Both the position numbers and the translations under genes were made by a program. The notes beneath the pieces were generated by a model, which was not told where the DNA came from, did not search any database, and saw nothing but the letters and a program-made list of their open reading frames with translations. A stretch of DNA of 64,000 bases from Octopus vulgaris (Eukaryota), in assembly GCA_951406725.2 (NCBI GenBank), contig OX597837.1, forward strand, positions 38,874,001-38,938,000, written 5' to 3'. Position 1 is the stretch's first letter, and the number at the start of each line of letters is the position of its first letter. Shown here piece by piece: positions 1 to 63,503 of the stretch.

Positions 1-909
1 TTTGTTTACATACATGTGTGAAATGGCAAATGTTTGTGCAGTTGTCCGAAATGGAACCAGGGTAAATGTGTGGAACTGATGTATTATAATGAATAGTCCT
101 TCTTGAACTGAAAACCAGTGGTGTAGCATATAAGATGATAAGGGATCTTCTTCTAGCCAAAATGGATGACCAGTCTGAATGGCTCACCCCTGTCACAGAC
201 ACACACGCACACACACGTTAGCTTACAATGTCTGTCAACAATTGACACTGTCGTATATATTAGCGTGTCTATGTGTCTAAAGAGGAAGTAGGAGTAATAG
301 GCAGAGTAAAGGCTTCAGAGTGAAAAGTTAAAATATTGAGTTTTCTCGAATTTTGTCTTAATTGGGGTGAAATTGAAAGAAATTTTGTATGGCATGACCG
401 AATGGGAGTACTTGTAAAAATCATAGGTAAACTGTAATTGAAGAAATTGTGTGAGGAGTAAATCGTTATGTATTTATTTGTTTCTGTTTGCTGTTTTTTT
501 TTTTTTGAGTAGTGTTGTAAGGTGCACTTGCAAAGAGAAAGTCGGAGAAATTAGGGTGATAGCATGAGTGACGCAGTTCATCCGTTTTATATAAATACTT
601 TCACTTTAATCATTGCACACTTGCAAAGAGAAAGGAGGAGAAATTAGGGTGATGGCATGAGTGAAACATTTCGCTCCGTTTGTGTGTGTGCTGTAGCCCA
701 CACTAAGAAAAGCACTTCACTTACACACCACAAAGTGAGTTTTCTCGAAATTTTGCTTAATTGGGGTTGAAATTTGAAAAACTGGACCTGGCACGACCCG
801 ATGTATTCTCTTAAAAATGCTAGGTAAATTGTAATTGAAGAAATCCTATATTGTAGATTTCTATTAGAGACAAAGGGAGGCAGATAAAATCTGCCTTTTA
901 TAATAAGAT
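1..909 (-). mobile_element. 5' portion of a non-autonomous Helitron (same family as 33380-35642), running off the window start
   Basis: Reverse complement aligns to 33380-34250, including the 5' terminus TCTTATTATAAAAGGCAG; it abuts a (TA)n tract. Confidence 0.75.
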
Positions 910-1018
910 ATATATATATATCGTGTGTGGTATGTCATGTTTGCCAGTAAGCCATAAAATAATTTCCAAACATTAATGTTTTTTGTGACTCTTTTATTTT
1001 AGAAGTCACCTATTTCAG

Positions 1019-1085
1019 CTAGGGTGAAAGAAAGGATTACACGTCAAAATATCCAACCCACAGGCAGAAAGACATTGAAGCAAAA
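1019..1085 (+). CDS. Gene A short basic linker exon (phase 1->2), ARVKERITRQNIQPTGRKTLKQ
   Basis: tatttcAG acceptor (a same-frame phase-0 ttttAG also exists at 1001-1002), AA|GTAAGT donor, open frame; the exit phase matches the acceptor of the next CARD exon; conserved at 36270-36336. Confidence 0.7.
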
Positions 1086-1489
1086 GTAAGTATTTCTAAT
1101 ATTTTTGATGTTGTAATTCCATTACCGTTGTTGTTGTTGTTGGTAGTGATGTTGTTGAACCCAAAGTGAGCCTCAAGCTATGTATATTTATATCCATGTG
1201 TATGTTTATATCATCATGGCTCGGCTTCGTGAACGAAGATCAGGAAGGCTTTCCATGTCGCATGCATGCATGCTCATGACTGAGAAGTCTGATATGGGAA
1301 AGGCAGGTCCGTGAGCAGTGTCCACAGACGAAGGTAACATCCGGTTTGGTGTCAGAGGCGGCTCACTCCTTCCTTCTGCGTCTCTTGTCTTTAAGCGCAT
1401 CTCTTCTTTGTTCCTCAAACTTGCTGTCTGCGTTGAAGATCGTGTGGTGCCAGACATCACGGTCTGCAGCCAGGTCTGACCTGCATTAA

Positions 1490-1722
1490 GTCGGCGAGCT
1501 GGCAGAAACGTTAGCACGCCAGGCGAAATGCTTAGCGGTATTTCGTCTGCCGTTACGTTGTGAGTTCAAATTCCGCCGAGGTCGACTTTGCCTTTCATCC
1601 TTTTGGGGTCGATAAATTAAGTGCCAGTTACGCACTGGGGTCGATGTAATCAACTTAATACCTGTGTCTGTCCTTGTTTGTCCCCTCTGTGTTTAACCCC
1701 TTGTGGGTAGTAAAGAAATAGG
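1490..1722 (+). mobile_element. tRNA-derived SINE, family 1 (core GCCTTTCATCCTTTCGGGGTCGATAAA)
   Basis: B-box-like GAGTTCAAATTCC; many dispersed copies (17574, 20057, 25830, 28280, 36740). The core resembles the Nin/Deu SINE domain (inference). Confidence 0.8.
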
Positions 1723-2561
1723 TCCGACCAGCATTGGTGGTTAATTTGACATAGAAAACACATATATACATGGTGTTTTGGGCTAAATTTTGATGATATT
1801 GCCTTCTTTTTCTCAGGAATATCTCGATGTATTGGTAAACGGTCATCATCATCATCATTGTTTAACGTCCGTTTTCCATACTGGCATGGGTTGGACGGTT
1901 CAAATTGGGTCTGGGTCGCCGGAAGGCTGCACCAGGCCCAGTGTGATATGGCAGTGTTTCTACTGCTGGATGCCCTTCCTAACGCCAACCACTTCGTGAG
2001 TGTAGTGGGTGCTTTTTACGTGCCACTGGCACAGGTGCCAGACAAGGCTGGCAAATGGCCACGATCGAATGGTGCTTTTTATGTGCCACTGGCACACATT
2101 TATATACTGTTGCGAAATATTTTAATATATTTTAATTTTTATGTATTAATTGTATTAATCGAATTATATTTCTATATAATTAATTACAATATGTATTTTG
2201 AATCCGCTCTACGATTTAAGGTTTTTCCTTGATTTTCTTTATAATGTATACTGAATTCATTTATTTTTGTCGCATGCTTAAGACTGTTATTTGATAAGAC
2301 CAATGAAACAAATCCATTTTTAAAGGTGTGTACTTTAACTAGTTTTGATCAAATTATTATTTCGGTTTTATTTTAACAAAACTGTCCGACGAACGGGAAC
2401 GTGAAACTCCGAGTAACAGCTTCTGTTGAATTTCTGCTGCTTTTAAATAAAGCATATTACTCTACCTCTGGTATTTGAGTACTCTCTTTTCCACCTTGTT
2501 TCACATTTATGTGCTTACTCCGGTGTATATATATATATATCATCATCATATATATATATAT

Positions 2562-3428
2562 AGGCGCAGGAGTGGCTGTGTGGTAAGTAGCTTACTAACC
2601 AACCACATGGTTCCGGGTTCAGTCCACTGCGTGACATCAAGGACATGTGTAGACTTGAAAGAAATGAAGCTAGCATGATCCGCTGGATGTGTAATGTCAG
2701 TGTGCACACACAACAGAGTGCCCTGAGAGAAATGCTGGACATAAGAAGCATCGGATGTGGCGTGCAAGAGAGACGTCTGCGCTGGTATGGTCATGTACTG
2801 CGGATTGATGAGGAGAGATGTGTGAAGTGCCACTCCCAAACAGTTGAATGTATGCGGGGTAGAAGTAGACCCAGGAAGACATGGGATGAGGTGGTCAAGC
2901 ATGACCTTCGAACGTTTGGCCTCACAGAGGCAATGACGAAAGACTGAGACCTCTGGAGATACGCTGTGACTGAGAAGACCCAACAAATCACGTGAGTTCA
3001 TGGCTGTTTCTGCACCAGCTTCACATAGAGGCCCTAGCCCTTCCAAAGTACCTTAGATTGCAGGACGGCCTGCTGTGCTTACCTTGGATCGTAGGGTAAC
3101 CTGCTGTCTTTGAGGAGACCTATTGAGTCAAGTACATCAACATCAAAATAAATATCAAATGGAAATTGTAGTTGTGATACCTGTGCCAGTGGTACATAAA
3201 AAGCACCAACCGATCGTGGCCGTTGCCAGCCTCTCCTGGCACTTGTGCCAGTGACATGTAAAAAGCACCCACTACACTCTCGGAGTGGTTGGCGTTAGGA
3301 AGTGCATCCAGCTGTAGAAATACTGCCAGATCAGACTGGTGCCTGGTGCAGCCTCCTGGCTTCCCAGACCCCGGCTGAACCGTCCAATCCATGCTAGCAT
3401 GGAAGACAGATGCTAAACGATGATGATG

Positions 3429-3430
<2 letters not shown>
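2562..3430 (+). mobile_element. SINE family-2 head fused to an RTE LINE 3' fragment (RT C-terminus, 3' UTR, (GAT)n tail); paralog at ~37834-38705
   Basis: GGCGCAGGAGTGGCTGTGTGG head; ORF 2645-2947 contains RRLRWYGHVLR..RPRKTW; ends AAACGATGATGAT. Confidence 0.8.
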
Positions 3431-3479
<49 letters not shown>

Positions 3480-6400
3480 ATAGAGAGAGAGAGAATGGAA
3501 GTAATAACAAGTGAATGAGAATAATGATGGAAGGGTTAAAAAAGTGTAAAAATAAAGATAAAATTAAATAAAACTAAAGCCAAAACATTAAAAATTATTG
3601 AAAGTGGGTAGAAATAAACACTACGTAGTGTAGTAATTCTACACTAGGGTGTCTGTAGAAAGTTGATTTTGATTTCGGAATATAAAGAGGAAAAATTCGG
3701 ATCTTGAGAATTTTCCAAAAGTCCTCTCCCCACCTCAAGATTTTCCCCACAGATTACTTTATAGTCATAATGCATGCTGTTTGGAAGGTATTTAAACAAA
3801 ATTTCAATAAAAAAATATTAATTTTCCTAACAGTTACAGGGGGAAAACTTGAATCTTGTGAATTTTCCAAAAGCCCTCTCCCCACCTCAAGATTTTCCCC
3901 ACAGATTACTTTATAGTCATAATGCATGCTGTTTGGAAGGTATTTAAACAAAATTTCAATAAAAAAATATTAATTTTCCTAACAGTTACAGGGGGAAAAC
4001 TTGAATCTTGTGAATTTTCCAAAGCCCTCTTCCCACCACCTTGGAAAAGATTTTCCCCACAAATTTCTTTATAATGGTGATGTATGCCGTTTGAATGGTA
4101 TTTCTATAAAATTTCATTGAAAAATCCCATTTTCCTAAAAGTTATGAGGGAAAAACTCAGATCTTGTGAATTTTCTGAGGTCCTCTCCCAAAATGCTTTG
4201 CGCGCATTTTAATTTTCTTTTTCAAATTCATTTCCGACATATTGTTTTACATGCTTTGTACTATTTTTTTCTGATTTTCGATTCTGGGTCAAGTTGTAAA
4301 CATTAACCCCTTTGGTCATGTTGTAAATGTTAACCCCTCCACCCACACGGTTTTCACTAATAAGGAAAAAAACTCGAATTTTTTTTTGCATGGAATCAAG
4401 TACCTGACCTTCTAGTGTGTGGCAAACCCCTCATTTTTGTTCAGAAACAAAAGTGTGTGTGTGTGTGCCCCCACTGCATCCCAGAATCATTGGAAATTTT
4501 TTTTTTCGGGGAATGAATTATGGTGGCCTCCTAACATGCTACAAAACCGATTTTTTTTGTTCCAGAAAACAAGTTGAAGTGGAACCCTTGGAAATTTTAC
4601 CCCCCCTTCTCCCCGCTCCTAACATTTTATAGAAATACGTTTTCCAGAAATACACGGATCATTATTAAATATATAAAGATTGTGAATTAATATGCTAACA
4701 TTTACGTTGTGTATTTGATGTTGAAAATAATTTTTCTGAAGTCTTAGTGTATGCATATATATATTCTGTAAATAATAACAATCGTATTTTACAAGCAATC
4801 AAGGAAAATAGTTTAATAATGGGGCATATAAACCCTTGACAGAGAAAAAGTAGGTTTTTCCATACTCGTGGGACTTTAACCGCACCTCTTTGTTTTCGCA
4901 ACAAGTATGCTACCATTACACTAGCACACAACCTGCTTCATTCCATCAGATTTTATCATCATCATCATCGTTTAGCGTCCACTTTCCATGCTGGCATGGG
5001 TTGGATGGTTCAACTGGGGTCTGGGAAGCCAGAAGGCTGCACCAGGTCCAGTCTGATCTGGCAATGTTTCTACAGCTGGATGCCCTTCCTAATGCCAACC
5101 ACTCCATGAGTGTAGTGGCTGCTTTTTACGTGCCACCAGCACAGGTGCCAGACAGGGCTGGCAAACGGCCATGATCGGATGGTGCTTTTTATGTGCCACC
5201 GGCACGGAGGCCAGACGAGGCTGGCAATGCCACGATCAGATGGTGCTCTTTATGTGCCACCGGAACGGAGGCCAGTCGGGGTGGCGCTGGCAACGGTCAC
5301 TTTTGGAAAGAACTATAATTAGTTTGTAGTGTTGTTTTTGTAAACAAACTTTCATGTGCTTTTACTGCAATGGTTTTTGTTAAGCAGCATTGATTTTTAC
5401 AGTTCTGTAAGTAATAATAATAATAATAGTGTTTTATAAGCTTAAAGCTTATAAGCGATCTCCGCTCAATGACTAAAGAAAATGGCCCAATAATAGAGCA
5501 TATAAGCCCTCGACAGAAAAATGTAGGTTTTCCTGTATGCATGGGACTCGAACCCACACCTCTTTGCTTTTACGTTGCGTACCCTCCCCTTTTTTGAGAA
5601 CAAAAATAAGGGATTTGCCGCACAATAGGCGGTCAGAGTACTTGTTTCCACGTGAAAAACCCGAGTATTTTTTGTTAGTGAAAATCGTATGGGTGAACGT
5701 ATCAAAATTTACCAATTTTGTTTTTAATCCACGTAGTTGTGATACCAGTGCCAGTGGCACGGAAGACAATCATCTGAATGTGGCCATAGCCAGCGCCGCC
5801 CCGACTGGCCTCCTGTGCCAGTGGCACGTAAAAAACACCATCCGATCGTGGCCGTTGCCAGCCTCGCCTGGCCTCCGTGCCGGTGGCACGTAAAAAGCAC
5901 CATCCGAGCATGGCCGTTTGCCAGCCTCGTCTGGCACCTGTGTCGGTGGCATGTAAAAAGCACCCACTACACTTACGGAGTGGTTGGTGTTAGGAAGGGC
6001 ATCAAGCCGTAGAAACACTACCAGATCAGACTAGGTCTGGTGCAGCCGTCTGGCTTCCCAGACCCCAGTTGAACCGTCCAACCCATGCTAGCATGGAAGC
6101 GGACGTTAAACGATGATGATGTTCAAAAATACAGAGATTACAAATCTGAGATTTTTTCTTTTTAATTAAAGTTTTTGCGGTTGTAAGGTGGTGTGGAAAA
6201 CATTTGTTTTATGTGAATTGAAAAAATATTCCCACTTTCTCTTACATATCCAACTTTCTATTGGTATTAGAAGAACTTTTGCACAGCTTCCACCTGTAAT
6301 CAACTGTTTTGCACACCTGTAATCAACTGTTTTGCTTATTTCTAACTTTTTTGACATTTTTTTTGTTTCTTTGTTTGGACTTTTTTTCCCTAATTATTTT

Positions 6401-6801
6401 TAACTTTGATTTTCGAGATGGATTAGATAATTGCAAAGATGGTCTGTAAACATAACTTATTTATCTGTACGTTTTCATAAATGCGATCACCCCTACAAAT
6501 AACTGCACACAGTTCTTGGGGGCTTGACAATTATGGCTGAAGTCGGCCACAATTTTATCTTTTGAAATTAAGAAAGATACGTAAAAATAACTTCTTTTGC
6601 ACACACACACACACACACATGTGCGCTCTAGGTAAAACTTCTGTATGTATTATAAAATTACAGCTCAACTTCAATTAAATTGACCTTTTTTTATTTTGTA
6701 ATTCATATTTGTGATGTTTATATTTTCACTCCCCATCCACCACCATCATCATAATATTTATTTTTATTTTCTATTTTTCGATCTTACCAAACTTTGCAAA
6801 G

Positions 6802-7301
6802 ATTCATCCTGACCAGTGAAAAAATGTCAGATCAACCAAAGGAAATTCGAGGCAGTCAACTGACAAAACAGAACCTGCGAAAACCCAAATCTGATCCATT
6901 GCCAAGCATGTCAGGCTGTAAAGTGCCATTTGAGAAAAGCAGTAAGAAATTCCCCAATAAGAATATTTCTCAGTTGGCATCAGTTGTTGATGAATCGACA
7001 GACAGCAATTCTGAAAAGATGATGAGTGAAGAACATAAGAAATTGGTGAAGGACAACTGTGTGGAGTTAGTGCAGAATATGTTCGCGAATGAGGTATTGG
7101 ATCATTTGTTGCAGAAGGATGTATTAACAATGTCTGAAAAGGACCGAATCAAAGCTGAAGGAGCATCTATGAATGAAAAACTCATTGATACAATCATGTG
7201 CAAACCAGATAAGGCTTTCTTTGTGTTTGTAGCTGCCCTGAAGAACACTGGTGAACCTCATTTGGCCGATTTGCTGTCACCTGCAAAAAAGCGAAAACCA
7301 G
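6802..7301 (+). CDS. Gene A linker+CARD exon (phase 2->1)
   Basis: CARD pattern EHKKLVKDNCVELVQNMFANEVLDHLLQKDVLT..E..I..LIDTIMCKPDKAFFVFVAALKNTGEPHLADLL; donor CCAG|GTAATT; phase-2 AG acceptors end at 6801 and 6816. Confidence 0.85.
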
Positions 7302-7338
7302 GTAATTTCTTTATACACAAATACACCCACCTATGCTT

Positions 7339-7371
<33 letters not shown>

Positions 7372-8203
7372 TACCCACTCTCTCGCACGCATGCATGTGA
7401 ATAGGTATGGCTCTGTGGTAAAGAAGTTCATTTTCCAGTCGGATTGTTTCCGGTTCAGTCCTACTGTATGGCACTTTGGACAAGTGTTTTCCAAATTCTT
7501 GTGAGTGTATTTGGTAGAAGGAAACTGCAAATCAACCTGTTGTATATATGTGCCTATATGTATATATACACACAATTTGCTGTCACCTGCAAAGAAGCGA
7601 AAACAAGGTAATTTCTTCACACACATACACCCACCCACTCTCTCGCACACCTGTGAATAGGTAGTTTCTTGTTATTATAAAACCTGCTTAACCATATTAG
7701 GCAGACTTTATAATGACAAGAAATGTTTAGCGGCTCTCAATTTAATATTTTGTACATTAAATAATATTTATCTTCCAGCAAATGGAGGACATTTTTTGTT
7801 GATCGGAACACTAAACTCTGTGTGTGAGTATTATGTATGTATATATGTATATATACACATACACAGACATGAATATATTAGCATATACATATATAAATAC
7901 AAGCAATAAGTTTCTTCTGTGGTTTTCCAAATCCACCCACAAGGCTTTGTTTGGGCCATGGCTATAATAGAAATCACACAGCTAAGGTGTCGCACAGTGG
8001 GACTGAACCTAACATCACATGCTTGGAAAGCAAACTACTTACCACACAGCCACATCTGTAACCATACATACATATATGCATACACACACACCCCTACCTA
8101 CATACATACATACATACATAGGTACTGTAAACTTAGAGTGAATACTTGATAAGTGTAAGCACCTGTATATGCCAGATAGTGGCAGAGGTGAGAGAGAATA
8201 TAT

Positions 8204-8823
8204 TGTTACGACACACAGGGTGGGATCACCTCGATTTTGATTCGTCAAAAAATTGATGACGTTTTACCTCAGTGGTCAAGCTTGTCGCCCTGCTTGGTCG
8301 GTTTCCTCACAAGATACAGTTATGGGTCAGACCCGATTTTGATTTGTCAAAAAATTGATGACGTTTTTCTTCCGTGGTCAAACTAGTCGTTCTGCTGGGC
8401 TAGCCACCTAACAGGATACAGTCATGGGTCAGATCTAATTTCGATTCGTAAAAAAATTGATGACGTTTTTCTTCCGTGGTCAAACTTGTCGTTCTGCTTG
8501 GTTGGTTTCCTAACAGGATACAGTTAGGGGTCTTTTCCCTATATTCGTTGAGGCTTGGTTTTGATTGGTTTGGAATTATATGACGTCAGTGAACAGTGCC
8601 AGAGACCAGGACCACCACTACTGCTCTCACAGCCACAGCTTAGCTGATATAAATCCAACAGTCACAAAATTTACCAAAATTACGCCAGCAGACGCTGACC
8701 AAGAATCATTACTGTTGCTCCCATTGGAACACAAGGTAAAATCTATAATGAACTCCTCGCCTTTTCAAGAACATGGATTCTATTGAATGTATATAGCATG
8801 GACTCTATTGAATGTATGTAACA
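8204..8823 (+). mobile_element. Possible solo LTR-like element with internal ~115-120 bp tandem repeats
   Basis: Starts TGTTAC and ends GTAACA; 3 units containing AAAAAATTGATGACGTTTT, plus GATTGG and TGACGTCA motifs; no convincing TSD. Confidence 0.4.
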
Positions 8824-9828
8824 ATTATGAACTGTTCCATTATACTCTTTATTATAAAAATTTTTTTGATAAGGTTCGTTATTTCAAGAACTGAAACATG
8901 TAAAATTAAAATTTATCTAATATAGTGGCATTTTCAAACTTCTTTTTTACATATATATATATATATATATATAAATATATATGTGTGTGTATATATATAT
9001 ATATATATATGTGTATATATATATATGTATATATATATATGTGTATGTATATTTATATATACACATATACATACATACATACATATATATATGTATATAA
9101 GCACAGTTTCGTCTTCCATGTTGTATGTTTAGAGAAAAAAACTTAAGATCCCTTCACTCAATCCAACTCTCCCTCTTTCTCCCTTCTCCCTCTCTTTCAT
9201 GCTCATTTATTATTAATATCATTATTATTATTATTATTATTATTGGTCATTTGTTAATTCATTTATCTAAGTTTGTCACAGTTTGGCTGACCAAAAACTG
9301 TTGGTTTTAGCTCTAGTTAAGAATACAAATTCCCAATTCTATCTCATTATTATTATTACTATTCTTTCACACTGGCAGCCTGAGTTTTCACTGTTTTACG
9401 GTGTGTCCATCCTTCCCACCCCCACCACCTGTACCGCAAGTCTTTATCCTCTGACCCAGTGGTTTTCAACCAGGGTTCCTCCAGTACAGTCCAGGGGTTC
9501 CGCAAAAAGTTACAAAACTGCTAAAATCGACAGTAATTTTTAATTCTCCTGTGCAGATATGTGTGCATAAGACAATTAAATTATTGCGCAGGGAATGTTT
9601 CCTTGGGGTTCCGCTCCAGCAAAAAGTTTGAAAAGCACTGCTCTGACCCCTATCAGATGTCTTTTCCCTGATCACCTCCAAAAGCTTAATACTTCCCAAT
9701 CCCTACTTAGGGTTTATCTCTTATGCAATGTAGTGATTAAATTAGTGTATAAAATGATGGTGTAGTGTGCGCAGGTTGAGGGCTATTGTATGTTTATGAG
9801 TTCTGCCAAATGCGATCTTTCTTTTCAG

Positions 9829-12437
9829 GTACACGATGCTGCCGTTACCTACCCCAGAAACGCGCGGGCCCACGCAGAGTTGGCACATTGAAAGGTAGGT
9901 CTGGTGAGATTGTTGAAATGCTTGAACTGAGATGTACTGCATCCAACAAATAAGGTGGAAAGGAAGTTCTGCTAGGTTCTTTACAGGCAAAGAATATAGG
10001 TATAAGATTTTCTGGGTAGGGAACACTGACGGGGTTGGGGGCATGGGACTACTTCTTGCGGAGAAAAAATATGGGTTGATAAGGTAATCGAGGTAGTCAG
10101 AGTTTGTCATAAAATACTTAAGCTTAGATTAGTGCTGCAACATAGGTTAGCTACCATTATCTCGGCTTACACCCTCAGCCAGGGCTACCTGATGAACAAA
10201 AGACCGATTTTATGACACCCTCTTGCAGGCTACTGTGTCGGCGAATTAAAGGGACCTTCTTTTTGTGACAGGCAACTTCAATGGGCATAGACAACATGCA
10301 GGGGGCTTCCATGGTGTACACAGTGGATATGGTTCCCACAATGCAAATGATCTTATGGTTTGTAATACACCTATTCATCTACCAGTCTCGAGGTCACACT
10401 AGTCACACTAGTCAAATTGACTACATCCTCACCAGGAAACGGGAAAGACGGCTATTTATAAATGTCAAAACCATCACAGGTGAAGAATGCACATTACAAC
10501 ATAGATTAGTAGCTAGTGACTTCAGGATCAGGGCTAAATCGATGCCCAGAAGACAACCAGCATGGAAAAAAGGGTCTGGAAGCTTAAGGATCCTGTGAAT
10601 AAATAGAGATGTATTACTTAAAGCTTTTGACAAAATAGAGGAGGATATAGCATCATATGATGTGGAAGACAACTGGAGGTTCTTACGGGACAACCTATTG
10701 AGGGCTACTGACAAGATCTGTGAATGGTGCAAAGTTTCCTCTTGACCCAAGGTAACGTAGTGGTGGAACAATGTAGTTGACAGAGCCATTAGGGAAAAGA
10801 AACAGACTTAGGAGGACTGGAAGAACGGTGGTAGTAGGGAATTGTATCAGTTTGCCAGAAGGGAAGCTAGGAGACAGGTTTACTTAGCTAGAGGTGAAGC
10901 AGATAAGAAAAATTTGCCAATTTTCTGTGTTGTGAGGACTAAAGACTTGAAGTGTTTTGTGTTGCAAGACTGTGAGAGAGAATCATGATGTTGTAGGAGA
11001 GAAATGTGTCCGCATGGATGATGGTTCACTTGCATTTAATGAGGCTGCAGAGAGATGTGGAGACGCCACTGTAAAAGGTTGCTAAATGAAGAGAATGAAT
11101 GGGAGAAAGAGAGTCTGCCGAATATCAACCCAAGAGAGGGACTAGCTATCTTAATTGACAGTACCTTGGTAGATAAAGCAATTAAGGGTATGAAGTCGGG
11201 GAAAGTCCCTGGCCCATCAGGAATCACTGTAGAGATGCTTAAAATATTTGGCAGCATTGGCTATAGTCTAGTCACCCATATAGACAATCAGGTGATACAT
11301 GAAGGAGTTATACCCAATGACTGGTGTAGCAGCACCATAGGCAACTGCTATAAAGGTAGGAATAATTGCAGAGGTATGAAGTTGTTGAATCAAGTAATGA
11401 AAGTCATGGAGAGGGTCATAGCCCAACTAATTAGAGAGAGTGTTAGATTAGATAAGACACAGTTTGGGTTTGTGCCAGGGAAAAGCACCACTGATGCTAT
11501 ATTTCTGGTAAGGCATCTGCAGGAGAAATATCTGACCAAAGATAAACCTCTGTACTTGGCTTTTGTTGACTTGGAGAAAGCCTATGACAGGGTCCCCCGA
11601 TCCCTTATCTGGTGGTCAATGCGGAAACTGGAGATAGACGAGTGGTTGGTAAGAGCTGTACAGGGATGCTGTCAGTAAGGTGAGGATTGGCAATGAGTAT
11701 AGTGAAGAATTCCGGCTAGAAGTAAGTGTTCACCAAGGATCTGTCCTCATCCCCCTCTTATTCATCATAGTCCTCCAGGCAATAAGAGAGGACTTCAAGA
11801 CAGGCTGCACATGGGAGCTCTTCTATGCTGATCGCCTTGTCACTGCCAGAACTGGGAGACAGAGTTTAGGGTGTGGAAGCAAGGTCTGGAATTGAAGGGC
11901 TTTAGGGTTAACCTAGCAAAAACCAAAGTTTTAATAAGTAGGAAGGCAGACAAATCACAAACCCCTTCAGGTGGATGGCCCTGCTCGATCTGTAAAAAAG
12001 GCATAGGTAGAAACTCCATATGAAGTGCCTGGTGTAAGCTGTAGACACACAAAAGGTGCAGTAATATCAAAGGAATGTTTACCGGAAAGATAGTTTTTGT
12101 GTATGAGAGATACACAGGAGCAAAAAACACTGAAGATGTACAGAGAACAGATTCCATCACACGACAGGGGGAAAAACTAGAAGTAGTTGATAGCTTTTGG
12201 TACCTATGTAACCAAGTCTGTAGTGGGGGTGGTTGCTTTGAGAGTGTAGCGGCTAGAATAAGAATAGCCTGGGCAAATTTCAGGGAGCTCCTACTTCTAC
12301 TGGCAACTAAGGGGCTGTTACTCAGGATGAAAGGTAGACTGTATGATGCATGTGTGCGAACTGCCATGCTACATGGCAGTGAAACATGGGCCATGACTGC
12401 TGAGGACATGTGTAGGCTTAAAAGAAATGAAGCTAGT
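9829..12437 (+). mobile_element. Decayed RTE-clade LINE (AP endonuclease + RT) in the last intron of gene A
   Basis: Fragments IDYILTRK, QFGFVPGKSTTDAIF, LAFVDLEKAYDRVP, LFYADR, AMLHGSETW, broken by stops and frameshifts. Confidence 0.9.
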
Positions 12438-12929
12438 ATAATCTGTACACACACAAACACACGCTCACACAAACACTATTGGTGCCCACACAATTTCTGT
12501 CTACCAAATTTTCTCACATTGGTTGGCCCATTCTGCCAAAATAAATGCTTTTTCATCCACATTGCCTTGAACTAATCAGGCATTATCTTGTAGCTATGAG
12601 ATTTTGATGAGGTAGCTGTTAATTTTTAAAATGATATTGTAGGATCGGTGTGAGAGACCAGATCTGGCCATTTTGAACATAAAACAGGCAGAATACTTTT
12701 GGCCGGATATGGCCAGTTTAAATGCTAAAGAGTTAAGATGCCATGGAGTGGAACTGAACCGAGAACCATGCGATTGCTAAGCTAGATTCTTAACCACACA
12801 ACCCCCAAAAATAGAGTAAAAGAAAAAAAGAAAACAAGCAAACAAAATAGAAACGAAAAAAATAAAACATATAACTGCATTTATTTATCTATTTGTTTTT
12901 TTAATTTTGTTTTTTCTGTTTCTTTCCAG

Positions 12930-12973
12930 GTCAGAATATTCCATTTTCGAAAGAGAATCTCTACAGACCTTGA
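12930..12973 (+). CDS. Gene A terminal coding exon (phase 1): GQNIPFSKENLYRP*
   Basis: Strong polypyrimidine tract plus ttccAG acceptor in unique sequence; the phase-1 reading continues the CARD exon; the same tract is the last bases of the window for gene B. Confidence 0.65.
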
Positions 12974-13352
12974 GTCCGAAGTGGTCAAGAAGGCCAGACG
13001 ATATCAATTAAGGTCCTCAAAAAAGCTGAGTACTTAATGTGATGGTGACACGGGTGGCAATGCTGGAGCATCGCTATAACAGGGTTTTAATCAAACTAAT
13101 CAAATTTACTCCATTATATTCTTTTATTTGCTTCTGTAATTTAACTGTGGCCATGCTAGAGCACCCCTTTAGTAGAACAAATCAACTCCAGGGCTTATTC
13201 TTTGTAAGCTTAGTATCTCTTCTATCAGTCTCTTTTGCTGGACTGCTAAGTTATAGAAATGTAAACACACCAACATCGGTTGTCGAGTGATGGTGGGAGA
13301 ACAAACACAGACACACAAACATATATATATATATATATACACATATATATAT

Positions 13353-13421
<69 letters not shown>

Positions 13422-13705
13422 CAACAATTGAGGGTAAAATTAATTAATTATTAATCAATTTCACCAAGTGTTCAGTATGCAAAGGGACCATTTAAGGCGA
13501 ATTCAAATTATTACATTATATAAAAGGGCTTAGTAAAATAAATTACTTTGCCGCATACTGAACTCATTAGAAATAGCAGCTAAAAAACTTTTTTAAAGCT
13601 ATTTCTAATACTTAAAGAAAATCTCTCTCATATATAGTGTTTGCTTAATTCAACTCACAAAAGTTTGGGGGTAAGGACATTAAAAAATCAAATGCTAAGG
13701 TTATT

Positions 13706-13757
13706 TGAGAACGTACGTTTCAAGATTAGTCAAAACAACACTTCTATCTTCAGCTCA
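13706..13757 (-). ncRNA. Minimal type I hammerhead ribozyme motif
   Basis: Minus strand: tgag-CTGAAGA-[imperfect stem II]-GAAA-cgtacg-TT-ctca; stem I TGAG/CTCA; palindromic stem III. Confidence 0.6.
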
Positions 13758-14250
13758 GAAACTCCTTGGTTTGGATTTGGAAACACTGAAAGTAAGAACA
13801 TACCCTTTCGAAGATCCGCTCGTAACTAACAGTGCCAACAAACCCAAATAAGCAAATGAAGAATTTCTGTTCTCCCCTTTCCACCAGCGTGGGTTAAAAT
13901 CATCAAACGCTATGCTTATTTCGGTAAAATCCGAAGCATTAATTAGAGGGAGATTAATTATAATTTCAACAATTGAGGGTAAAATTAATTAATTATTAAT
14001 CAATTTCACCAAGTGTTCAGTATGCAAAGGGACCATTTAAGGCGAATTCAAATTATTACATTATATAAAAGGGCTTAGTAAAATAAATTACTTTGCCGCA
14101 TACTGAACTCATTAGAAATAGCAGCTAAAAAACTTTTTTAAAACTATTTCTAATACTTAAAGAAAATCTCTCTCATATATAGTGTTTGCTTAATTCAACT
14201 CACAAAAGTTTGGGGGTAAGGACATTAAAAAATCAAATGCTAAGGTTATT

Positions 14251-14302
14251 TGAGAACGTACGTTTCAAGATTAGTCAAAACAACACTTCTATCTTCAGCT
14301 CA
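14251..14302 (-). ncRNA. Second copy of the minimal type I hammerhead motif
   Basis: Same as 13706-13757, in the second 545-bp unit. Confidence 0.6.
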
Positions 14303-16166: not shown

Positions 16167-16174
16167 CTGAGCTC

Positions 16175-23860: not shown

Positions 23861-24095
23861 AAACAAGTGGGGGAAGGAGTGGGGCTAAAAAAAATCATAA
23901 ATTTTCAAATTTTTTTATAGTATGTGTTTTTATGTATGCGTTGAATTATGTATCCTCACCACTGGGCCAATCTTCTATTCATTCCCCACCCTTTTCACAA
24001 TATTTATTTATTTGTTTTGGTTATCTTTCAAATACCCAGAATCTACAACCTTTTGAGAAATTCTGTCATTGCTGGTAGTGATAGAATAGAAAGAA

Positions 24096-24621
24096 ATGGA
24101 ATCTAAGAGAAAGAAAGATCTCTCGCAATCGCAGAAAAACAAGGAATTTTATGTATGTAAAAGTAGAAATGTAACGAGCATTCCTGAGCAAGGGAACTTT
24201 TCAACAGGCATCCATAATGCTTTGCCGAGTACATCAGGCACTTTACAGGTCACCGAGGAACTTCACGATGCGAGCAATTCACAGCTGAGGCCATATGTTG
24301 ATGACTCATCAGATGATGATATAGAGATAATGAGTCCAGAAAACAAGAGGCGCCTGAATGACTGTTCTGTGAAATTGGTGGAAAATATGATTCCTGATGA
24401 AGTGCTCAATTTTTTATTGGCAAAGAAAGTATTAACAAACTATGAGATGGACACAGTTAAAAGTAAGGGAATCCGTATGGCTATGAATGAAATGCTCATT
24501 TCTTTGGTGACCTGCAAGCCAGATAAAGCATTTAGTGTACTTGTAGAGGCCCTGAAGAGATCTGGGCAAAAGCATTTGGCCAAGTTACTGACATCTACCG
24601 AGTATCGAAAACGGAAACCAG
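24096..24621 (+). CDS. Gene B first coding exon: N-terminal linker + CARD1
   Basis: ATG preceded by in-frame stops (24054, 24087) and a cccAG acceptor at 24039; divergent CARD ENKRRLNDCSVKLVENMIPDEVLNFLLAKKVLT..KPDKAFSVLVEALKRSGQKHLAKLL; same KRKP-G|GTAATT phase-1 donor as the other CARD exons. Confidence 0.85.
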
Positions 24622-29807: not shown

Positions 29808-30013
29808 CTACTGAGACAAACACAACTTTATAATGCGCACGTATGTGCCATCAAATTGTCTCACAAACTCTTCATAAGCTTCAGGAGAGTTGTCTTGCCG
29901 TTTGATGCTGCAGAGCCATGACTTCAGTACATTACACATCTCACTTAAGCACTCTTTTCCTTTACTGTCAGAACTGGCTAAGTTCTCAATGTCAACTTGC
30001 ATGCTTATCTCCC
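29808..30013 (-). pseudogene. Antisense exon-like fragment of unknown origin
   Basis: Minus-strand acceptor tttatttttcttgcAG followed by an open 68-codon frame GEISMQVDIENLASSDSKGKECLSEMCNVLKSWL..YEEFVRQFDGTY; no family recognised. Confidence 0.35.
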
Positions 30014-30119
30014 CTGCAAGAAAAATAAACAGGCTGTTTTGGTATTTTTTCTTAGTTTTTTTTTAGTTTTAAAATATTTACTATTAGTTTCCCACCACAA
30101 AATATCAAGAAAATAGACA

Positions 30120-30420
30120 AAAACAGCACCTGTGCTTTGAAGAACTTACTCTATGTCCTCAAATATGGTGGGTGTGATAGAGACTACATAGGTCAGACTA
30201 GTTTGACCTTGAGGGACAGACTGACGGTATACAAGCAACAAATCTGGGACCCCATGACCAGGAAAATTCCCATAAGCAAACACTTAGACCAATGCCCTGC
30301 AAACATAAACCCAAAATACCAAATCGTCTCTCTCTATCAATGCACTGGAAACACTTCAACCCAATTCCAATTGAATAAGGAAAGCATATCATTAAAAATA
30401 TAAACCACAACTAAATATCC
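30120..30420 (+). mobile_element. Penelope-like element GIY-YIG endonuclease fragment
   Basis: KNLLYVLKYGGCDRDYIGQTSLTLRDRL..ISKHL fits the PLE GIY-YIG pattern. Confidence 0.75.
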
Positions 30421-30639
30421 TTTAAAAAGAAGAAAAACACTCAATTTCTCCACAGAAAAAAAGCAATCAGATACACAGACATAATTTGAAAACTTTAGTA
30501 ACAGTTTTCCTCCTATGTTTCAAAACCACAATAACACAATACACTGGAGGTAGGAGCTGGTGTTAGCAGTGTTGTAAGTATAAGCATTATGGTCATCGAA
30601 TGGTGTAGATTTAAGTTGTGTAGCAAAAATATGGATATT

Positions 30640-32888
30640 CCAAAAGAAAGAGGCTTGGAGAAGCTATTATGAAAGACTGTTGAATGTGGAGAATGAATGG
30701 GAGGAGGAGAGCCTGCCAAATGTTGATCCAGTAGAGGGACCAGCTATCCAAATAGATAGCTCCCTTGTAGTTAAGGCAATTAAGGGTATGAAACCAGGTA
30801 AAGCCCCCGGCCCATCGGGAATCACTGCTGAGAGGCTTAAAACAGCAGGTTATGTGGGCTACGGCCTAGTCACCCGTATTGTAAACCAGGTAGTTCATAA
30901 TGGAATCATACCCAATGACTGGCGTAGCAGCACCATAGTCAACTGCTACAAGGGTAAGGGTGATGCTCTTGATAGAAATAACTATAGGGGTATTAAACTG
31001 TTGGACCAGGTGATGAAGGTCACAGAGAGGGTCATAGCCCATCTCATTAGGGAGAGAATTTGCTTAGATGAGATGCAGTTCGGTTTTGTGCTGGGTAGAA
31101 GCACCACTGATGCTATATTCCTGGTCCGACAACTGCAGGAGAAATACCTAGCTAAAGATAAACCCCTCTACATAGCTTTTGTGGACTTGGAGAAAGCCTT
31201 TGACAGGGTCCCCCAATCCCTTATCTGGTGGTCGATGCGGAAACTGGAGATTGATGAATGGCTAATAAGGGCTGTACAGGCCCTATACAGAGAGGCTGTC
31301 GGCAAGGTTAGGATTGGCAACGAATATAGTGAAGAATTCCGGGTAGAAGTAGGTGTACACCAAGGCTCAGCTGTCAGTCCCCTTTTATTCATCATAGTCC
31401 TCCAGGCAATAACAGAGGAATTCAAAACAGGTTGCCCCTGGGAGCTCCTCTATGCTGATGACCTGGCTCTCATAGCAGAATCACTACCTGAACTAGAAAA
31501 GAAATTTCGGGTGTGGAAACAAGAGTTAGAATCAAAGGGCCTTAGAGTAAATATAGCAAAGATCAAAGTTATAGTAAGCAGAAAGGCAAACTCAGCACAC
31601 ACACCATCGGGCAGGTGGCCCTGCTTGATCTGTAGGAAAGGTGTAGGTAGAAACTCCATAAGATGCACCCAGTATAAGCTATGGACGCATAAGAGGTGCA
31701 GCAACATCAAAGGGAAATTAACTGATAAGATAGCAATAGACACCACAAATACTCAGAAAACAGATTCCATCACACTCCAGGGGGAGAAACTAGAAGTAGT
31801 TGATAGTTTCCGCTACCTGGGTGACCAAGTTAGTAGTGGAGGTGGATGCTCAGAGAGTGTCACCACTAGAATACAAATAGCCTGGGCAAAGTTTAGAAAG
31901 CTCCTACCCCTACTGGCGACAAAGGGTCTCTCACTCAGAGTGAAAGGTAGATTGTATGATGCATGTGTGCGAACTGCCATGCTTCACGGTAGTGAAACAT
32001 GGGCCGTGACTATAGAGGACATGCCTTGACTCGAAAGAAATGAAGCTAGCATGATCCGCTGGATGTGTAATGTCAGTGTGCATGCACGACAGAGTGTAAG
32101 CACCCTGAGAGAAATGCTGGACATAAGAAGCATCAGCTGTGGTATACAAGAGCGACGCTTGCGATGGTACGGTCATGTACTTCGGATTGATGAGGAGAGA
32201 TGTGTGAAGAAGTGCCATTCCCAAACAGTTGAAGGAATCAGGGGGAGAGGTAGACCCAGGAAGACATGGGATGAGGTAGCCAAGCATGACCTCAGAACGT
32301 TGGGCCTCATTGAGGCAATGGCGAAGGACCGAGATCTCTGGAGATGTGCTGTGACTGCAAAGACCCGAGCTGCTTCCTGCACCAGTTCCGCATAGCCCCT
32401 GCCCATTCAAAGTACCTTGGATCCCAGAACATCCCGCTGTGCTTGAGGAGACCTGTTGAGTCAAGTACATGAACATCGAAACAAATATCAATGGAAATGG
32501 TAGATGTGATACCTGTGCCGGTGGCACATAAGAAGCACCATCCGAACGTGGCCGATGCCAGCGCCACTTCGACTGGCTTCTGTGCCAGTGGCACATAAAA
32601 AGCACCATCCGAACGTGGCCGATGCCAGCTCCGCCCTGGCTGGCTTCCGTGCCGATGTGATCGTGGCCGATGCCAGACTCCTCTGGCACTTGTGCCGGTG
32701 TCACGTAAAAAGCACCCACTACACTCGCGGAGTGGTTGGCATTAGGAAGGGCATCCAGCTGTAGAAACACTGCCAGATCAGACTGGAGCCTGGTGCAGCC
32801 CGTGGCTTCCCAGACTCCGGTCGAACCATCCAACCCGTGCTAGTGCGGAAAACGGACGTTAAACGTTAAATGATGATGATGATGATGA

Positions 32889-36168: not shown

Positions 36169-36269
36169 TATATATATATATATATATATATCGTGTGTGG
36201 TATGTCATGTTTGCCAGTAAGTCATAAAATGATTTCCAAACATTTTATTTTAGGAGTCACCTATTTCAG

Positions 36270-36336
36270 CTAAGGGGAAAAAAAGGATTACACGTCAAAA
36301 TATCCAACCCAAAGGCAGAAAGACATTGAAGGAAAA
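36270..36336 (+). CDS. Gene B basic linker exon (phase 1->2), AKGKKRITRQNIQPKGRKTLKE
   Basis: tatttcAG acceptor and AA|GTAAGT donor; joins CARD1 (phase 1) to CARD2 (phase 2) in frame. Confidence 0.72.
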
Positions 36337-41927: not shown

Positions 41928-42442
41928 GAACAGTTTGCAAACATTCATCCTGACCAGTGAAAAAATGTCAGATCAACCAAAGGAAATTCGAGGCAGTCAA
42001 CTGACAAAACAGAACCTGCGAAAACCCAAATCTGATCCATTGCCAAGCATGTCAGGCTGTAAAGTGCCATTTGAGAAAAGCAGTAAGAAATTCCCCAATA
42101 AGAATATTTCTCAGTTGGCATCAGTTGTTGATGAATCGACAGACAGCAATTCTGAAAAGATGATGAGTGAAGAACATAAGAAATTGCTGAAGGACAACCG
42201 TGTGGAGTTAGTGCAGAATATGATCGCGAATGACGTATTGGATCATTTGTTGCAGAAGGATGTATTAACAATGTCTGAAAAGGACCGAATCAAAGCTGAA
42301 GGAGCATCTAAGAATGAAAAACTCATTGATACAATCATGTGCAAACCAGATAAGGCTTTCTTTGTGTTTGTAGATGCCCTGAAGAACACTGGTCAACCTC
42401 ATTTGGCCGATTTGCTGTCACCTGCAAAAAAGCGAAAACCAG
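41928..42442 (+). CDS. Gene B linker + CARD2 exon (phase 2->1)
   Basis: Phase-2 AGs end at 41927 and 41933; CARD EHKKLLKDNRVELVQNMIANDVLDHLLQKDVLT..ALKNTGQPHLADLL; donor CCAG|GTAATT. Confidence 0.87.
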
Positions 42443-44498: not shown

Positions 44499-44542
44499 CA
44501 TCCGGTAGAGAAAATGCCAATGCAAAAAGAATGGTGATACAG
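44499..44542 (+). CDS. Gene B 44-nt linker exon (phase 1->0), ASGRENANAKRMVIQ
   Basis: ttttttttctcctcAG acceptor and CAG|GTGAGA donor; bridges CARD2 (phase 1) to the phase-0 CARD3 exon exactly. Confidence 0.75.
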
Positions 44543-45050: not shown

Positions 45051-45083
<33 letters not shown>

Positions 45084-56760: not shown

Positions 56761-56793
<33 letters not shown>

Positions 56794-57205: not shown

Positions 57206-57253
<48 letters not shown>

Positions 57254-57494: not shown

Positions 57495-58060
57495 TCTTAC
57501 CAAAGCAGTATCCTGCTTAAAACAGTCACTCCGACCAGCGTGAAAGTGGAGCTGCAGAGTGAAGAAGGAGAGATATACAATGCTGGATCAAAGAATATTC
57601 TAATCGACGAGCCAAGGGAAGATAATCCTTTAATAAGCAAATTTGATCAATTGCCGAGTACATCGGCCTATGTAGAGGCGTCTGGGGAAAGCATTAAGAG
57701 CCTTCCCAATGAAGCTTTTTCTCAGTCGGGATCAGTTGATGAATCGGCAGACAGCGAAGACAGCGATTCTGTGAAGATGATGAGTGAAGTACATAAGAAA
57801 TTTGCTGAAGGACAACCGTGTGGAGTTAGTGCAGAATATGATCCCGAATGACGTATTGGATCATTTGTTGCAGAAGGATGTATTAACAATGTCTGAAAAG
57901 AAACGAATCAAAGCTGAAGGAGCATCTATGAATAAAAAACTCATTGATACAATCATGTGCAAACCAGATAAGGCTTTCTTTGTGTTTGTAGCTGCCCTGA
58001 AGAACACTGGTCAACCTCATTTGGCCGATTTGCTGTCACCTGCAAAAAAGCGAAAACCAG
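57495..58060 (+). CDS. Gene B linker + CARD3 exon (phase 0->1) with a +1 frameshift at 57801-57803
   Basis: ttttttcAG acceptor in frame with ORF 57540; the CARD continues in ORF 57784; TTT replaces the TT of the paralogs; donor CCAG|GTAATT. Confidence 0.8.
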
Positions 58061-60868: not shown

Positions 60869-63503
60869 TCTTTTCAGGTACACGATGCTGCCGTGCCCTA
60901 TCCCAGAAACGCGCGGGCCCACGCAGAGTTGGCACATTGAAAGGTAGCTCTGGTGAGATTGTTGAAATGCTTGAACTGAGATGTGTAGGTTTGTGCTGCA
61001 TCCAACAAATAAGGTGGAAAGGAAGTTCTGCTAGGTTCCTTACAGGCAAAGAATATAGGTATAAGATTTTCTGGGTAGGGAACACTGACGGGGTTGGGGG
61101 CATGGGACTACTTGCGGAGAAAAAATATGGGTTGATAAGGTAATCGAGGTAGTCAGAGTTTGTCATAAAATACTTAAGCTTAGAGTAGTGCTGCAACATA
61201 GGTTAGCTACCATTATCTCAGCTTACACCCCTCAGCCAGGGCTACCTGATGAACAAAAGACCGATTTTATGACACCCTCTTGCAGGCTACCTTGTCGGCG
61301 AATGACAGGGACCTTCTTTTTGTGACGGGCAACTTCAATGGGCATAGACAACATGCATGGGGCTTCCATGGTGTACATGGTGGCTATGGTTTTGGTTCCC
61401 ACAATGCAAATGATCTTATGGTTTGTAATACACCTATTCATCTACCAGTTTCGAGGTCACACTAGTAACACTGACTACATCCTCACCAGGAAACGGGAAA
61501 GACGGCTATTTATAAATGTCAAAAACATCACAGGTGAAGAATGCACATTACAACATAGATTAGTAGCTAGCGACTTCAGGATCAGGGCTAAATCGATGCC
61601 CAGAAGACAACCAGCATGGAAAAAAAGGGTCTGGAAGCTTAAGGATCCTGTGAATAAATAGAGATGTATTACTTAAAGCTTTTGACAAAATAGAGGAGGA
61701 TATAGCATCATATGATGTGGAAGACAACTGGAGGTTCTTACGGGACAACCTATTGAGGGCTACTGACAAGATCTGTGAATGGTGCAAAGTTTCCTCTTGA
61801 CCCAAGGTAACGTAGTGGTGGAACAATGTAGTTGACAGAGCCATTAGGGAAAAGAAACAGACTTAGGAGGACTGGAAGAACGGTGGTAGTAGGGAATTGT
61901 ATCAGTTTGCCAGAAGGGAAGCTAGGAGACGGGTTTACTTAGCTAGAGGTGAAGCAGATAAGAAAAATTTGCCAATTTTCTGTGTTGTGAGGACTAAAGA
62001 CTTGAAGTGTTTTGTGTTGCAAGACTGTGAGAGAGAATCATGATGTTGTAGGAGAGAAATGTGTCCGCATGGATGATGGTTCACTTGCATTTAATGAGGC
62101 TGCAGAGAGATGTGGAGACGCCACTGTAAAAGGTTGCTAAATGAAGAGAATGAATGGGAGAAAGAGAGTCTGCCGAATATCAACCCAAGAGAGGGACTAG
62201 CTATCTTAATTGACAGTACCTTGGTAGATAAAGCAATTAAGGGTATGAAGTCAGGGAAAGTCCCTGGCCCATCAGGAATCACTGTAGAGATGCTTAAAAT
62301 ATTTGGCAGCATTGGCTATAGTCTAGTCACCCATATAGACAATCAGGTGATACATGAAGGAGTTATACCCAATGACTGGTGTAGCAGCACCATAGGCAAC
62401 TGCTATAAAGGTAGGAATAATTGCAGAGGTATGAAGTTGTTGAATCAAGTAATGAAAGTCATGGAGAGGGTCATAGCCCAACTAATTAGAGAGAGTGTTA
62501 GATTAGATAAGACACAGTTTGGGTTTGTGCCAGGGAAAAGCACCACTGATGCTATATTTCTGGTAAGGCATCTGCAGGAGAAATATCTGACCAAAGATAA
62601 ACCTCTGTACTTGGCTTTTGTTGACTTGGAGAAAGCCTATGACAGGGTCCCCCGATCCCTTATCTGGTGGTCAATGCGGAAACTGGAGATAGGTGAGTGG
62701 TTGGTGAGAGCTGTACAAGTCCTGTACAGGGATGCTCTCAGTAAGGTGAGGGTTGGCAATGAGTATAGTGAAGAATTCCGGCTAGAAGTAAGTGTTCACC
62801 AAGGATCTGTCCTCATCCCCCTCTTATTCATCATAGTCCTCCAGGCAATAAGAGAGGACTTCAAGACAGGCTGCACATGGGAGCTCCTCTATGCTGATCG
62901 CCTTGTCACTGCCAGAACTGGGAGACAGAGTTTAGGGTGTGGAAGCAAGGTCTGGAATTGAAGGGCTTTAGGGTTAACCTAGCAAAAACCAAAGTTTTAA
63001 TAAGTAGGAAGGCAGACAAATCACAAACCCCTTCAGGTGGATGGCCCTGCTCGATCTGTAAAAAAGGCATAGGTAGAAACTCCATATGAAGTGCCTGGTG
63101 TAAGCTGTAGACACACAAAAGGTGCAGTAATATCAAAGGAATGTTTACCGGGAAGATAGTTTTTGTGTATGAGAGATACACAGGAGCAAAAAACACTGAA
63201 GATGTACAGAGAACAGATTCCATCACACGACAGGGGGAAAAACTAGAAGTAGTTGATAGCTTTTGGTACCTATGTAACCAAGTCTGTAGTGGGGGTGGTT
63301 GCTTTGAGAGTGTAGCGGCTAGAATAAGAATAGCCTGGGCAAATTTCAGGGAGCTCCTACTTCTACTGGCAACTAAGGGGCTGTTACTCAGGATGAAAGG
63401 TAGACTGTATGATGCATGTGTGCGAACTGCCATGCTACATGGCAGTGAAACATGGGCCATGACTGCTGAGGACATGTGTAGGCTTAAAAGAAATGAAGCT
63501 AGT
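60869..63503 (+). mobile_element. Decayed RTE LINE, paralog of 9829-12437
   Basis: ORFs 62110-62961 and 63141-63641 match those at 11055-11895 and 12075-12575. Confidence 0.9.

What the first reader, a model, noticed from the sequence alone, without database searches (positions are those of the whole stretch)
6802..8203. Gene A appears to be an unequal-crossover hybrid of CARD2 and CARD3 (CARD-number accordion)
Seen: upstream, gene A matches the CARD2 region (offset ~35 kb); downstream it matches the CARD3 region (offset ~51 kb). The difference equals the 15.6-kb CARD2-CARD3 spacing. Diagnostic intron bases are CARD2-like at ~7311-7340 and CARD3-like from ~7531 onward. Gene A lacks the 44-nt exon and one CARD unit yet stays in frame because all CARD exons end in phase 1. 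Inference: recombination changes CARD valency without breaking the ORF.
Basis: partly seen in the sequence, partly recalled or inferred. Interest (0 to 1): 0.7.

Follow-up and report, generated by a model that had tools for sequence, protein, structure and literature searches.

The report
Octopus CARD-number accordion gene array
Four near-identical octopus immune-type genes lying side by side carry 2, 3, 2 and 4 CARD interaction domains, and the copy examined here has the front of one CARD repeat joined to the back of another, likely because unequal recombination deleted a frame-preserving unit; the mechanism is familiar, but we found no description of this locus.

Summary
The hybrid pattern is real. 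Gene A follows B's CARD2 region for about 7 kb upstream and B's CARD3 region for about 10 kb downstream, switching inside a 1.2-kb repeat. The missing unit (44-nt exon plus CARD3 exon, 609 nt in D) is frame-neutral. Outgroups favour loss in A: O. bimaculoides and O. sinensis both have the CARD3 linker and the 44-nt exon.

Corrections: the offset arithmetic is a tautology; the 7311-7340 bases are not diagnostic once seven paralogous repeats are compared, so the switch lies anywhere in 7016-7531; B is broken in this assembly (three lesions).

Beyond the window the array has four copies (2/3/2/4 CARD exons). C lost a CARD core through a separate junction at a 4-bp microhomology; D carries a reciprocal-type repeat. 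A and C keep a TRADD-like N-terminal exon that an inversion broke in B and D. The family likely descends from a molluscan single-CARD/TRADD-N gene; no caspase domain was found.

Not shown: reads spanning A, or selection on CARD number (22 nonsynonymous versus 3 synonymous variants, p=0.20 against neutrality).

The parts
1003..1085 (+). Gene A 83-nt linker exon (phase 0 to 2). A's CARD1 exon, TRADD-like exon and 47-nt exon lie upstream of the window, about 21.7, 14.9 and 10.1 kb before base 1
6783..6801 (+). A/C-type splice acceptor: net 9 bp shorter than in B and D, with a new AG at 6800-6801; shared only by A and C
6802..7301 (+). Gene A hybrid CARD exon, 500 nt, phase 2 to 1: CARD2-type linker (238 of 238 nt identical to B2) plus CARD core (PF00619, 58.7 bits) with 4 private nonsynonymous changes
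7016..7531 (.). Interval that holds the switch from CARD2-type to terminal CARD3-type sequence (narrowest single-switch reading 7033-7232)
7043..8203 (.). Homology tract shared by all seven CARD2/3-type repeats (CARD core plus 0.9 kb of intron); the likely recombination substrate
9829..9894 (+). Gene A first tail exon, 66 nt, phase 1 to 1; identical in A and C over the 141 bases compared
   Evidence: a CARD core joined to a D-type copy of this exon in run X2
12930..13040 (+). Gene A last exon (short basic tail; end approximate)
24032..24621 (+). Gene B CARD1 exon; the acceptor reads AA instead of AG
29826..30643 (-). Inverted fragment in B holding the first ~60 codons of the TRADD-like exon; the adjacent deletion removes the 47-nt exon
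36254..36336 (+). Gene B 83-nt exon (phase 0 to 2)
41928..42442 (+). Gene B CARD2 exon, 515 nt, phase 2 to 1
44499..44542 (+). 44-nt exon, phase 1 to 0; absent from A and C
   Evidence: joined to a CARD core in runs X4 and X7
57495..58060 (+). Gene B CARD3 exon, 566 nt, frameshifted by one extra T in the run at 57801-57803
60878..60943 (+). Gene B first tail exon

Best explanation
Gene A carries a CARD2-type front joined to a terminal CARD3-type back, and it likely arose when unequal homologous recombination inside the shared 1.2-kb CARD-plus-intron repeat deleted one frame-neutral unit (44-nt exon plus CARD3 exon) from an ancestor with three or more CARDs. Shown: the flank switch, the exon phases, the 2/3/2/4 CARD-exon counts, a patchwork of affinities among the four copies, and the age of the missing unit. 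Inferred: the crossover itself, its direction, and gene conversion as the reason why CARD2 and CARD3 cores stay 97.6% identical while their linkers are 77.5% identical. The predicted product of A (553 aa: CARD, TRADD-like N domain, linker, CARD, short tail) would be a non-enzymatic death-fold adaptor that recruits partners by CARD-CARD contacts; copies with more CARDs and no TRADD-like domain would act as higher-valency scaffolds or decoys if they are translated. That function is inferred from domain families and is untested.
For: Flank switch over 7 kb and 10 kb. At 39 sites where B2=D2 differ from B3=D4, A is CARD2-type at all 28 up to 7032 and CARD3-type at 10 of 11 from 7233; 0 of 200,000 shuffles gave as few switches, though most of the 28 lie in the divergent linker. 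Unit length 609 nt, phase 1 to 1. Outgroups: O. sinensis models have CARD1-2-3 with the 44-nt exon; O. bimaculoides P0043 has the CARD3-type linker (53 of 73 aa to B3, 28 of 75 to A) followed by the 44-nt exon peptide. C, which shares A's acceptor, TRADD-like exon and 99.3% identity over 19 kb, retains most of a CARD3 linker, so the A/C ancestor had CARD3. D3 is the mirror image: CARD3 linker followed by 2.2 kb of CARD2 downstream sequence, 96.6%. Contigs of four RNA-like runs join exons at the predicted boundaries: core to 44-nt exon (X4), core to 44-nt exon to CARD3 linker (X7), core to tail exon (X2), 83-nt exon to CARD2 acceptor (X2, X7).
Against: No read or contig spans A from its linker to its 3' flank (searches gave short-read contigs only). 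One site after the switch (8021) is CARD2-type, and core alleles are shuffled across repeat classes, so conversion blurs the breakpoint. A is a patchwork overall (C-like from about -16.7 kb to +1.2 kb, B/D-like 1.8-7.0 kb, C-like again 8.3-10.8 kb), so one clean crossover is a simplification. Functional valency is doubtful in this assembly: B stops after 181 codons, D after 405 with its usual donor, and A's first ATG after 23; only C reads open from its first ATG through the exons joined. CARD-core variants show no excess of synonymous change (22 nonsynonymous, 3 synonymous; pN/pS 1.95; p=0.20 against neutrality), which fits decay as well as diversifying selection.
Confidence: 0.62

Rival explanations
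1. Two steps: the A/C ancestor first lost the CARD2 core and 44-nt exon through the 4-bp microhomology junction seen in C; A then lost the leftover CARD3 linker by recombination between the two similar linker ends, or by conversion from a CARD2 template. A would still be a CARD2/CARD3 hybrid, but not the product of one 15.6-kb crossover.
For: A and C share the new acceptor, the intact TRADD-like exon, identical 47-nt and first tail exons, 99.3% identity over 19 kb and C-like sites at 8.3-10.8 kb. The switch interval includes the linker end. The C-type junction appears old: O. sinensis isoform P0005 has it; contigs in X11 and X17 end at L010 4991-4994 and begin at 4996, next to the one base where C differs; C's 30-bp linker deletion is bridged in both runs. 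Run X17 has the A/C acceptor on an A-type linker.
Against: A's linker is identical to B2 (238 of 238) and 94.8% identical to C; A's core and tract differ from C at 20 sites against 13 for D4 and 17 for B3.
Confidence: 0.18
2. Assembly artefact: A is a mis-join across the 1.2-kb repeat, or A and C are two haplotypes of one locus placed in tandem.
For: A and C differ at only a few sites per kilobase over about 18 kb. Three homopolymer-type single-base indels break frames in A, B and D, as consensus errors in segmental duplications would.
Against: A has private substitutions and its own insertion pattern; C and D meet tail to tail, which haplotype duplication does not normally give (inference); C-type sequence coexists with other linker types in single DNA runs X11 and X17; no N gaps lie in the 264 kb. 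Even if A and C were alleles, CARD content would still vary between haplotypes.
Confidence: 0.12
3. A is the ancestral two-CARD state; B and D gained CARD3 by internal duplication, and gene conversion later homogenised the copies.
For: Conversion can clearly homogenise old repeats here (cores 97.6%, linkers 77.5%). Six bivalve, gastropod or unnamed homologues scanned have a single CARD plus the TRADD-like region, so CARD number did grow at some time.
Against: The CARD3 linker and 44-nt exon predate the split from O. bimaculoides; A's closest copy C keeps a CARD3 linker; A would have had to be converted over its whole ~45 kb while keeping the gap.
Confidence: 0.05

Closest known systems
Invertebrate CARD + TRADD-N (DEDD2 clade) proteins, Kaur et al. 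2021 (PMC8195603; passages, section 11 and searches in supplement file 4 seen)
   Same: CARD followed by a TRADD-like N domain; the supplement lists CARD+TRADDN-DEDD2 in Lingula and Capitella and one CARD+TRADDN-DEDD2+CARD in Lingula.
   Different: The paper states that cephalopods have very few or no TRADD-N domains. Here a four-copy array varies CARD number by recombination and has lost the TRADD-like exon in two copies. The paper proposes retrotransposition as a source of new architectures; this locus points to homologous recombination. Clade (DEDD2 or NCOA6) was not tested.
Primate CASP1 / CARD16 / CARD17 / CARD18 locus (PMC11630849; passages seen)
   Same: Tandem CARD genes, repeated gene conversion that keeps CARDs alike, duplication and pseudogenisation.
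   Different: Those are single-CARD offshoots of a caspase; here there is no caspase domain in the six models scanned, and the number of CARDs within one gene changes.
Molluscan single-CARD/TRADD-like orthologues (Solemya P0016, Pecten P0021, Saccostrea P0025, Patella P0028; O. bimaculoides P0013)
   Same: CARD directly followed by the homologous 150-aa domain; 27-33% identity in bivalves and limpet, 68% in O. bimaculoides.
   Different: They have one CARD; the octopus genes add one to three CARD exons behind the domain.
Repeat-unit accordions by non-allelic recombination in tandem immune genes, such as KIR hybrids, CFH/CFHR hybrids and CR1 long homologous repeats (recalled, from no call)
   Same: Symmetric-phase modules gained and lost between near-identical repeats.
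   Different: Those change extracellular domains; here the unit is an intracellular death-fold domain.

Membership tests
CARD domain (PF00619) | HMM score above the curated cut-off (23.9 bits) | tested here: met
   4 of 4 window CARD exons: 58.7, 61.3, 70.9, 71.8 bits
Hybrid by non-allelic homologous recombination | 5' flank from one repeat and 3' flank from the other | tested here: met
Hybrid by non-allelic homologous recombination | Junction inside a long, highly identical tract with no scar | tested here: met
   tract 7043-8203, no indel or inserted sequence at the switch
Hybrid by non-allelic homologous recombination | Ancestral state carried both repeats | tested here: met
   outgroup proteins and copy C; rests on protein models, no outgroup DNA was on hand
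Hybrid by non-allelic homologous recombination | Reciprocal product with the same breakpoint | tested here: inconclusive
   D3 is reciprocal in type but switches at 7738-7802 (A coordinates), A before 7532
Hybrid by non-allelic homologous recombination | Single molecules spanning the junction | not testable with these tools
   only short-read contigs were offered
TRADD-like N domain (PF20694) | HMM score above cut-off (23.7 bits) | tested here: inconclusive
   A model P0004 scores 14.6 bits; the 68%-identical O. bimaculoides P0013 scores 30.5 bits, and 6 of 18 homologues scanned pass
TRADD-like N domain (PF20694) | Fold and feature similarity to the family | tested here: inconclusive
   Atlas: top three clusters are TRADD-like_N at 0.93, TM 0.65/0.75 to one; own model pLDDT 73.9 gave no clear PDB match
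DEDD2 clade of TRADD-N | Placement in the clade by phylogeny | not tested
   no tree of TRADD-N domains was built
Caspases | Peptidase C14 domain | tested here: not met
   no hit in 6 of 6 full-length models
CARD-only proteins (CARD16/17/18 type) | A single CARD as the only domain | tested here: not met
   A has two CARDs and the TRADD-like exon; B's predicted 181-aa product would be CARD-only if made

The most novel reading that the evidence does not exclude
Octopuses keep a live, selected valency switch in a death-fold adaptor: recombination between converted CARD repeats dials CARD number up and down among haplotypes, and copies split into two classes, two CARDs with an intact TRADD-N switch (A, C) and three or four CARDs without it (B, D) that act as decoys or nucleators. 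It would be a cephalopod counter-example to the view that motile molluscs lack diversifying TRADD-N immune genes.
Probability: 0.15. Interest if true: 0.7.

Novelty: new variant of a known kind. Interest (0 to 1): 0.42.

Why it matters
CARD number sets how avidly an adaptor nucleates signalling complexes (established knowledge, e.g. tandem CARDs). A locus where near-identical copies differ in CARD number through at least two different junctions gives a natural series for testing this in an invertebrate. It also corrects public gene models: P0004, named kinesin-related, joins A's exon to B's 44-nt exon and broken CARD3 across about 37 kb. If the copies are merely decaying, it is an ordinary segmental-duplication patchwork.

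Tried and rejected
Offset arithmetic as evidence: rejected, it is automatic. The 7311-7340 bases as breakpoint markers: rejected. A's private core alleles at 7082, 7093 and 7253 were not in the contigs listed for X1, X11, X4 and X2, and B3's extra T was in none of the six runs laid; contigs drop rare variants, so this shows nothing either way. No contig bridging C's junction was among the rows shown (27 not shown). Contig depths were not used as copy numbers. No holder was on record as RNA; 'RNA-like' rests on the tool's guess and on exon joints. Run X1 may not be independent of the assembly. Fold searches of the TRADD-like model: Foldseek no match at E<=0.001; VIA best Z 5.9 on a helical hairpin only. 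Search for 91-291-aa homologues of the CARD2 exon: 0 of 59 candidates. CARD tree: quick method only, 16 rows; the four bivalve and limpet CARDs were dropped by my motif filter, so it is unrooted; it separates CARD1 from CARD2/3 (support 100) with O. bimaculoides on both sides. DNA alignment of the 44-nt and 47-nt exons failed, so their homology is not shown. Literature: five topical searches listed no paper on this locus; PMC11463336 passages had no octopus mention; LOC106877111 was not in supplement file 4 of PMC8195603, but that file was cut when stored and file 13 was not searched. One search was seen as a listing only and not used. Earlier findings: none shown. No complex prediction was run.

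Full report
Setting. The window is G000:C24:38874001-38938000. Public models that match it letter for letter are named Octopus vulgaris by their sources. I added 50 kb upstream and 150 kb downstream and give outside positions in extended window coordinates. All 12 genome matches to A's CARD exon lie within about 206 kb (a lower bound).

The observation. A aligns to B's CARD2 region from 908 to 8203 (96.0-97.6%) and to B's CARD3 region from about 7000 to 17212 (93-99%). The B2 match ends at 8203; the B3 match fades upstream of the CARD core. In the three-way comparison 9 of 11 informative sites before 7532 are B2-like and 12 of 15 after are B3-like. The equality of offset difference and spacing (15,618) is automatic.

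Gene anatomy. Exon mapping with public models and splice motifs gives: CARD1 exon (ends phase 1), 450-nt TRADD-like exon (1 to 1), 47-nt exon (1 to 0), 83-nt exon (0 to 2), CARD2 exon (2 to 1), a repeatable unit of 44-nt exon (1 to 0) plus CARD3 exon (0 to 1) of 609 nt, a 66-nt tail exon (1 to 1) and a last exon. Contigs from RNA-like runs join a core to the 44-nt exon (X4), on to the CARD3 linker (X7), a core to the tail exon (X2) and the 83-nt exon to the CARD2 acceptor (X2, X7). They cannot be assigned to one copy.

Four copies. A (two CARD exons), B (three), C (two) lie in tandem; D (four) is inverted, tail to tail with C. C lost the CARD2 core and 44-nt exon through a junction inside the exon: the CARD2 linker runs into the CARD3 linker where both parents share GAAA, with one later substitution. 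O. sinensis isoform P0005 has the same junction at protein level; as the skipped piece has no GT-AG ends there, I infer that it reflects a C-type gene. In runs X11 and X17 contigs end and begin on either side of the one distinguishing base, and C's 30-bp linker deletion is bridged: indirect support for C outside this assembly. D's third CARD has a CARD3 linker followed by 2.2 kb of CARD2 downstream sequence with its own 44-nt exon; the next intron is about 12 kb shorter than in B and joins within a repeat present at B 44611-45079 and 56771-57238. That is the mirror image of A, with a different switch point. Whether D gained or the others lost this unit is open, since O. bimaculoides also has a CARD3 unit followed by the 44-nt exon.

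Breakpoint. With seven repeats aligned, sites 7313, 7334 and 7335 are not class markers. At 39 sites where B2=D2 differ from B3=D4, A is CARD2-type through 7032 and CARD3-type at 10 of 11 from 7233. Sites 7032 and 7233 are not consistent in C and D3, so the safe interval is 7016-7531. The whole of A is a patchwork of C-like and B/D-like segments, as expected under conversion.

Direction. CARD2 and CARD3 linkers are 77.5% identical, their cores 97.6%, and A's linker equals B2's. O. sinensis models have three CARDs. O. bimaculoides has CARD1 plus the TRADD-like domain (P0013) and a CARD3-type unit (P0043). C, A's closest copy on both flanks, keeps a CARD3 linker. Loss in A is therefore the best reading; a two-step route through a C-like gene remains possible.

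A and C keep the TRADD-like exon; B and D share an inversion that cuts it after about 60 codons. An HMMER search with this exon found 32 proteins at E<=0.001; of 18 scanned, 9 have a CARD and 13 hit PF20694 at E<=0.01, 6 above its cut-off; named ones are molluscan. The Atlas agrees; PDB searches were inconclusive. CARD+TRADD-N architectures are already catalogued in brachiopods and annelids, and cephalopods are said to have few such domains (PMC8195603).

Intactness. As assembled, B has a mutated CARD1 acceptor, no 47-nt exon and an extra T in CARD3; D has a one-base loss at the end of CARD2; A has a one-base gain early in CARD1 and reads 553 codons from a second ATG; C is open. The three single-base indels are in homopolymers and may be errors. 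Core variants across seven repeats are 22 nonsynonymous and 3 synonymous, not different from neutral (p=0.20).

Verdict. The hybrid is in the sequence, and the accordion is better supported than the window alone showed. The mechanism, unequal recombination and conversion between symmetric-phase repeats, is of a known kind (compare PMC11630849). The locus was not found in five searches. Function and selection are untested. Interest 0.42.

Noticed in passing
window 7574-7640 (and the same place in all seven repeats): A short intronic copy of the CARD exon end, including a GT donor-like site, 270 bases behind the true donor.
   Followed up: no
window 7301-7304, run X2: A loose end behind the CARD exon that matches nothing in the 264-kb region at up to 2 mismatches; possibly another terminal exon in organism B.
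   Followed up: partly
window 44499-44542 and the 47-nt exon 10.1 kb upstream of the window: The 44-nt and 47-nt exons share phases (1 to 0) and their first three and last five bases; they may be old paralogues, but alignment failed.
   Followed up: partly
window 12930-13040; D last exon at extended 128926-128818: D's annotated tail ends in a YPLRS motif resembling the C-terminal YxLRS of bivalve and limpet homologues; A's copy has small deletions and stops before it.
   Followed up: no
public model P0004 (CAI9740338.1): Joins A's CARD exon to B's 44-nt exon and frameshifted CARD3, skipping A's tail and B's first two CARDs; probably a mis-annotation, named kinesin-related.
   Followed up: partly
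O. sinensis isoform P0003: Begins with the 3' part of the TRADD-like exon, close to where the B/D inversion cuts it; the inversion may predate the species split.
   Followed up: partly
window 8232-8532, 13414-14626, 17573-18603, 47893-49536, 59013-59415: Tandem arrays of about 102, 545, 174 and 330 bp units whose unit counts differ between the four copies.
   Followed up: no
window 30584-32029, 49518-51464, 53364-56671: Non-LTR retroelement frames (reverse transcriptase, endonuclease) inside introns of B; related copies at 10874-12443 and 61929-63509.
   Followed up: no
G000:C24 about 39064000-39071000 (extended 190-197 kb): A further partial copy of the inter-gene spacer upstream of D, suggesting a lost or truncated fifth unit.
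   Followed up: no
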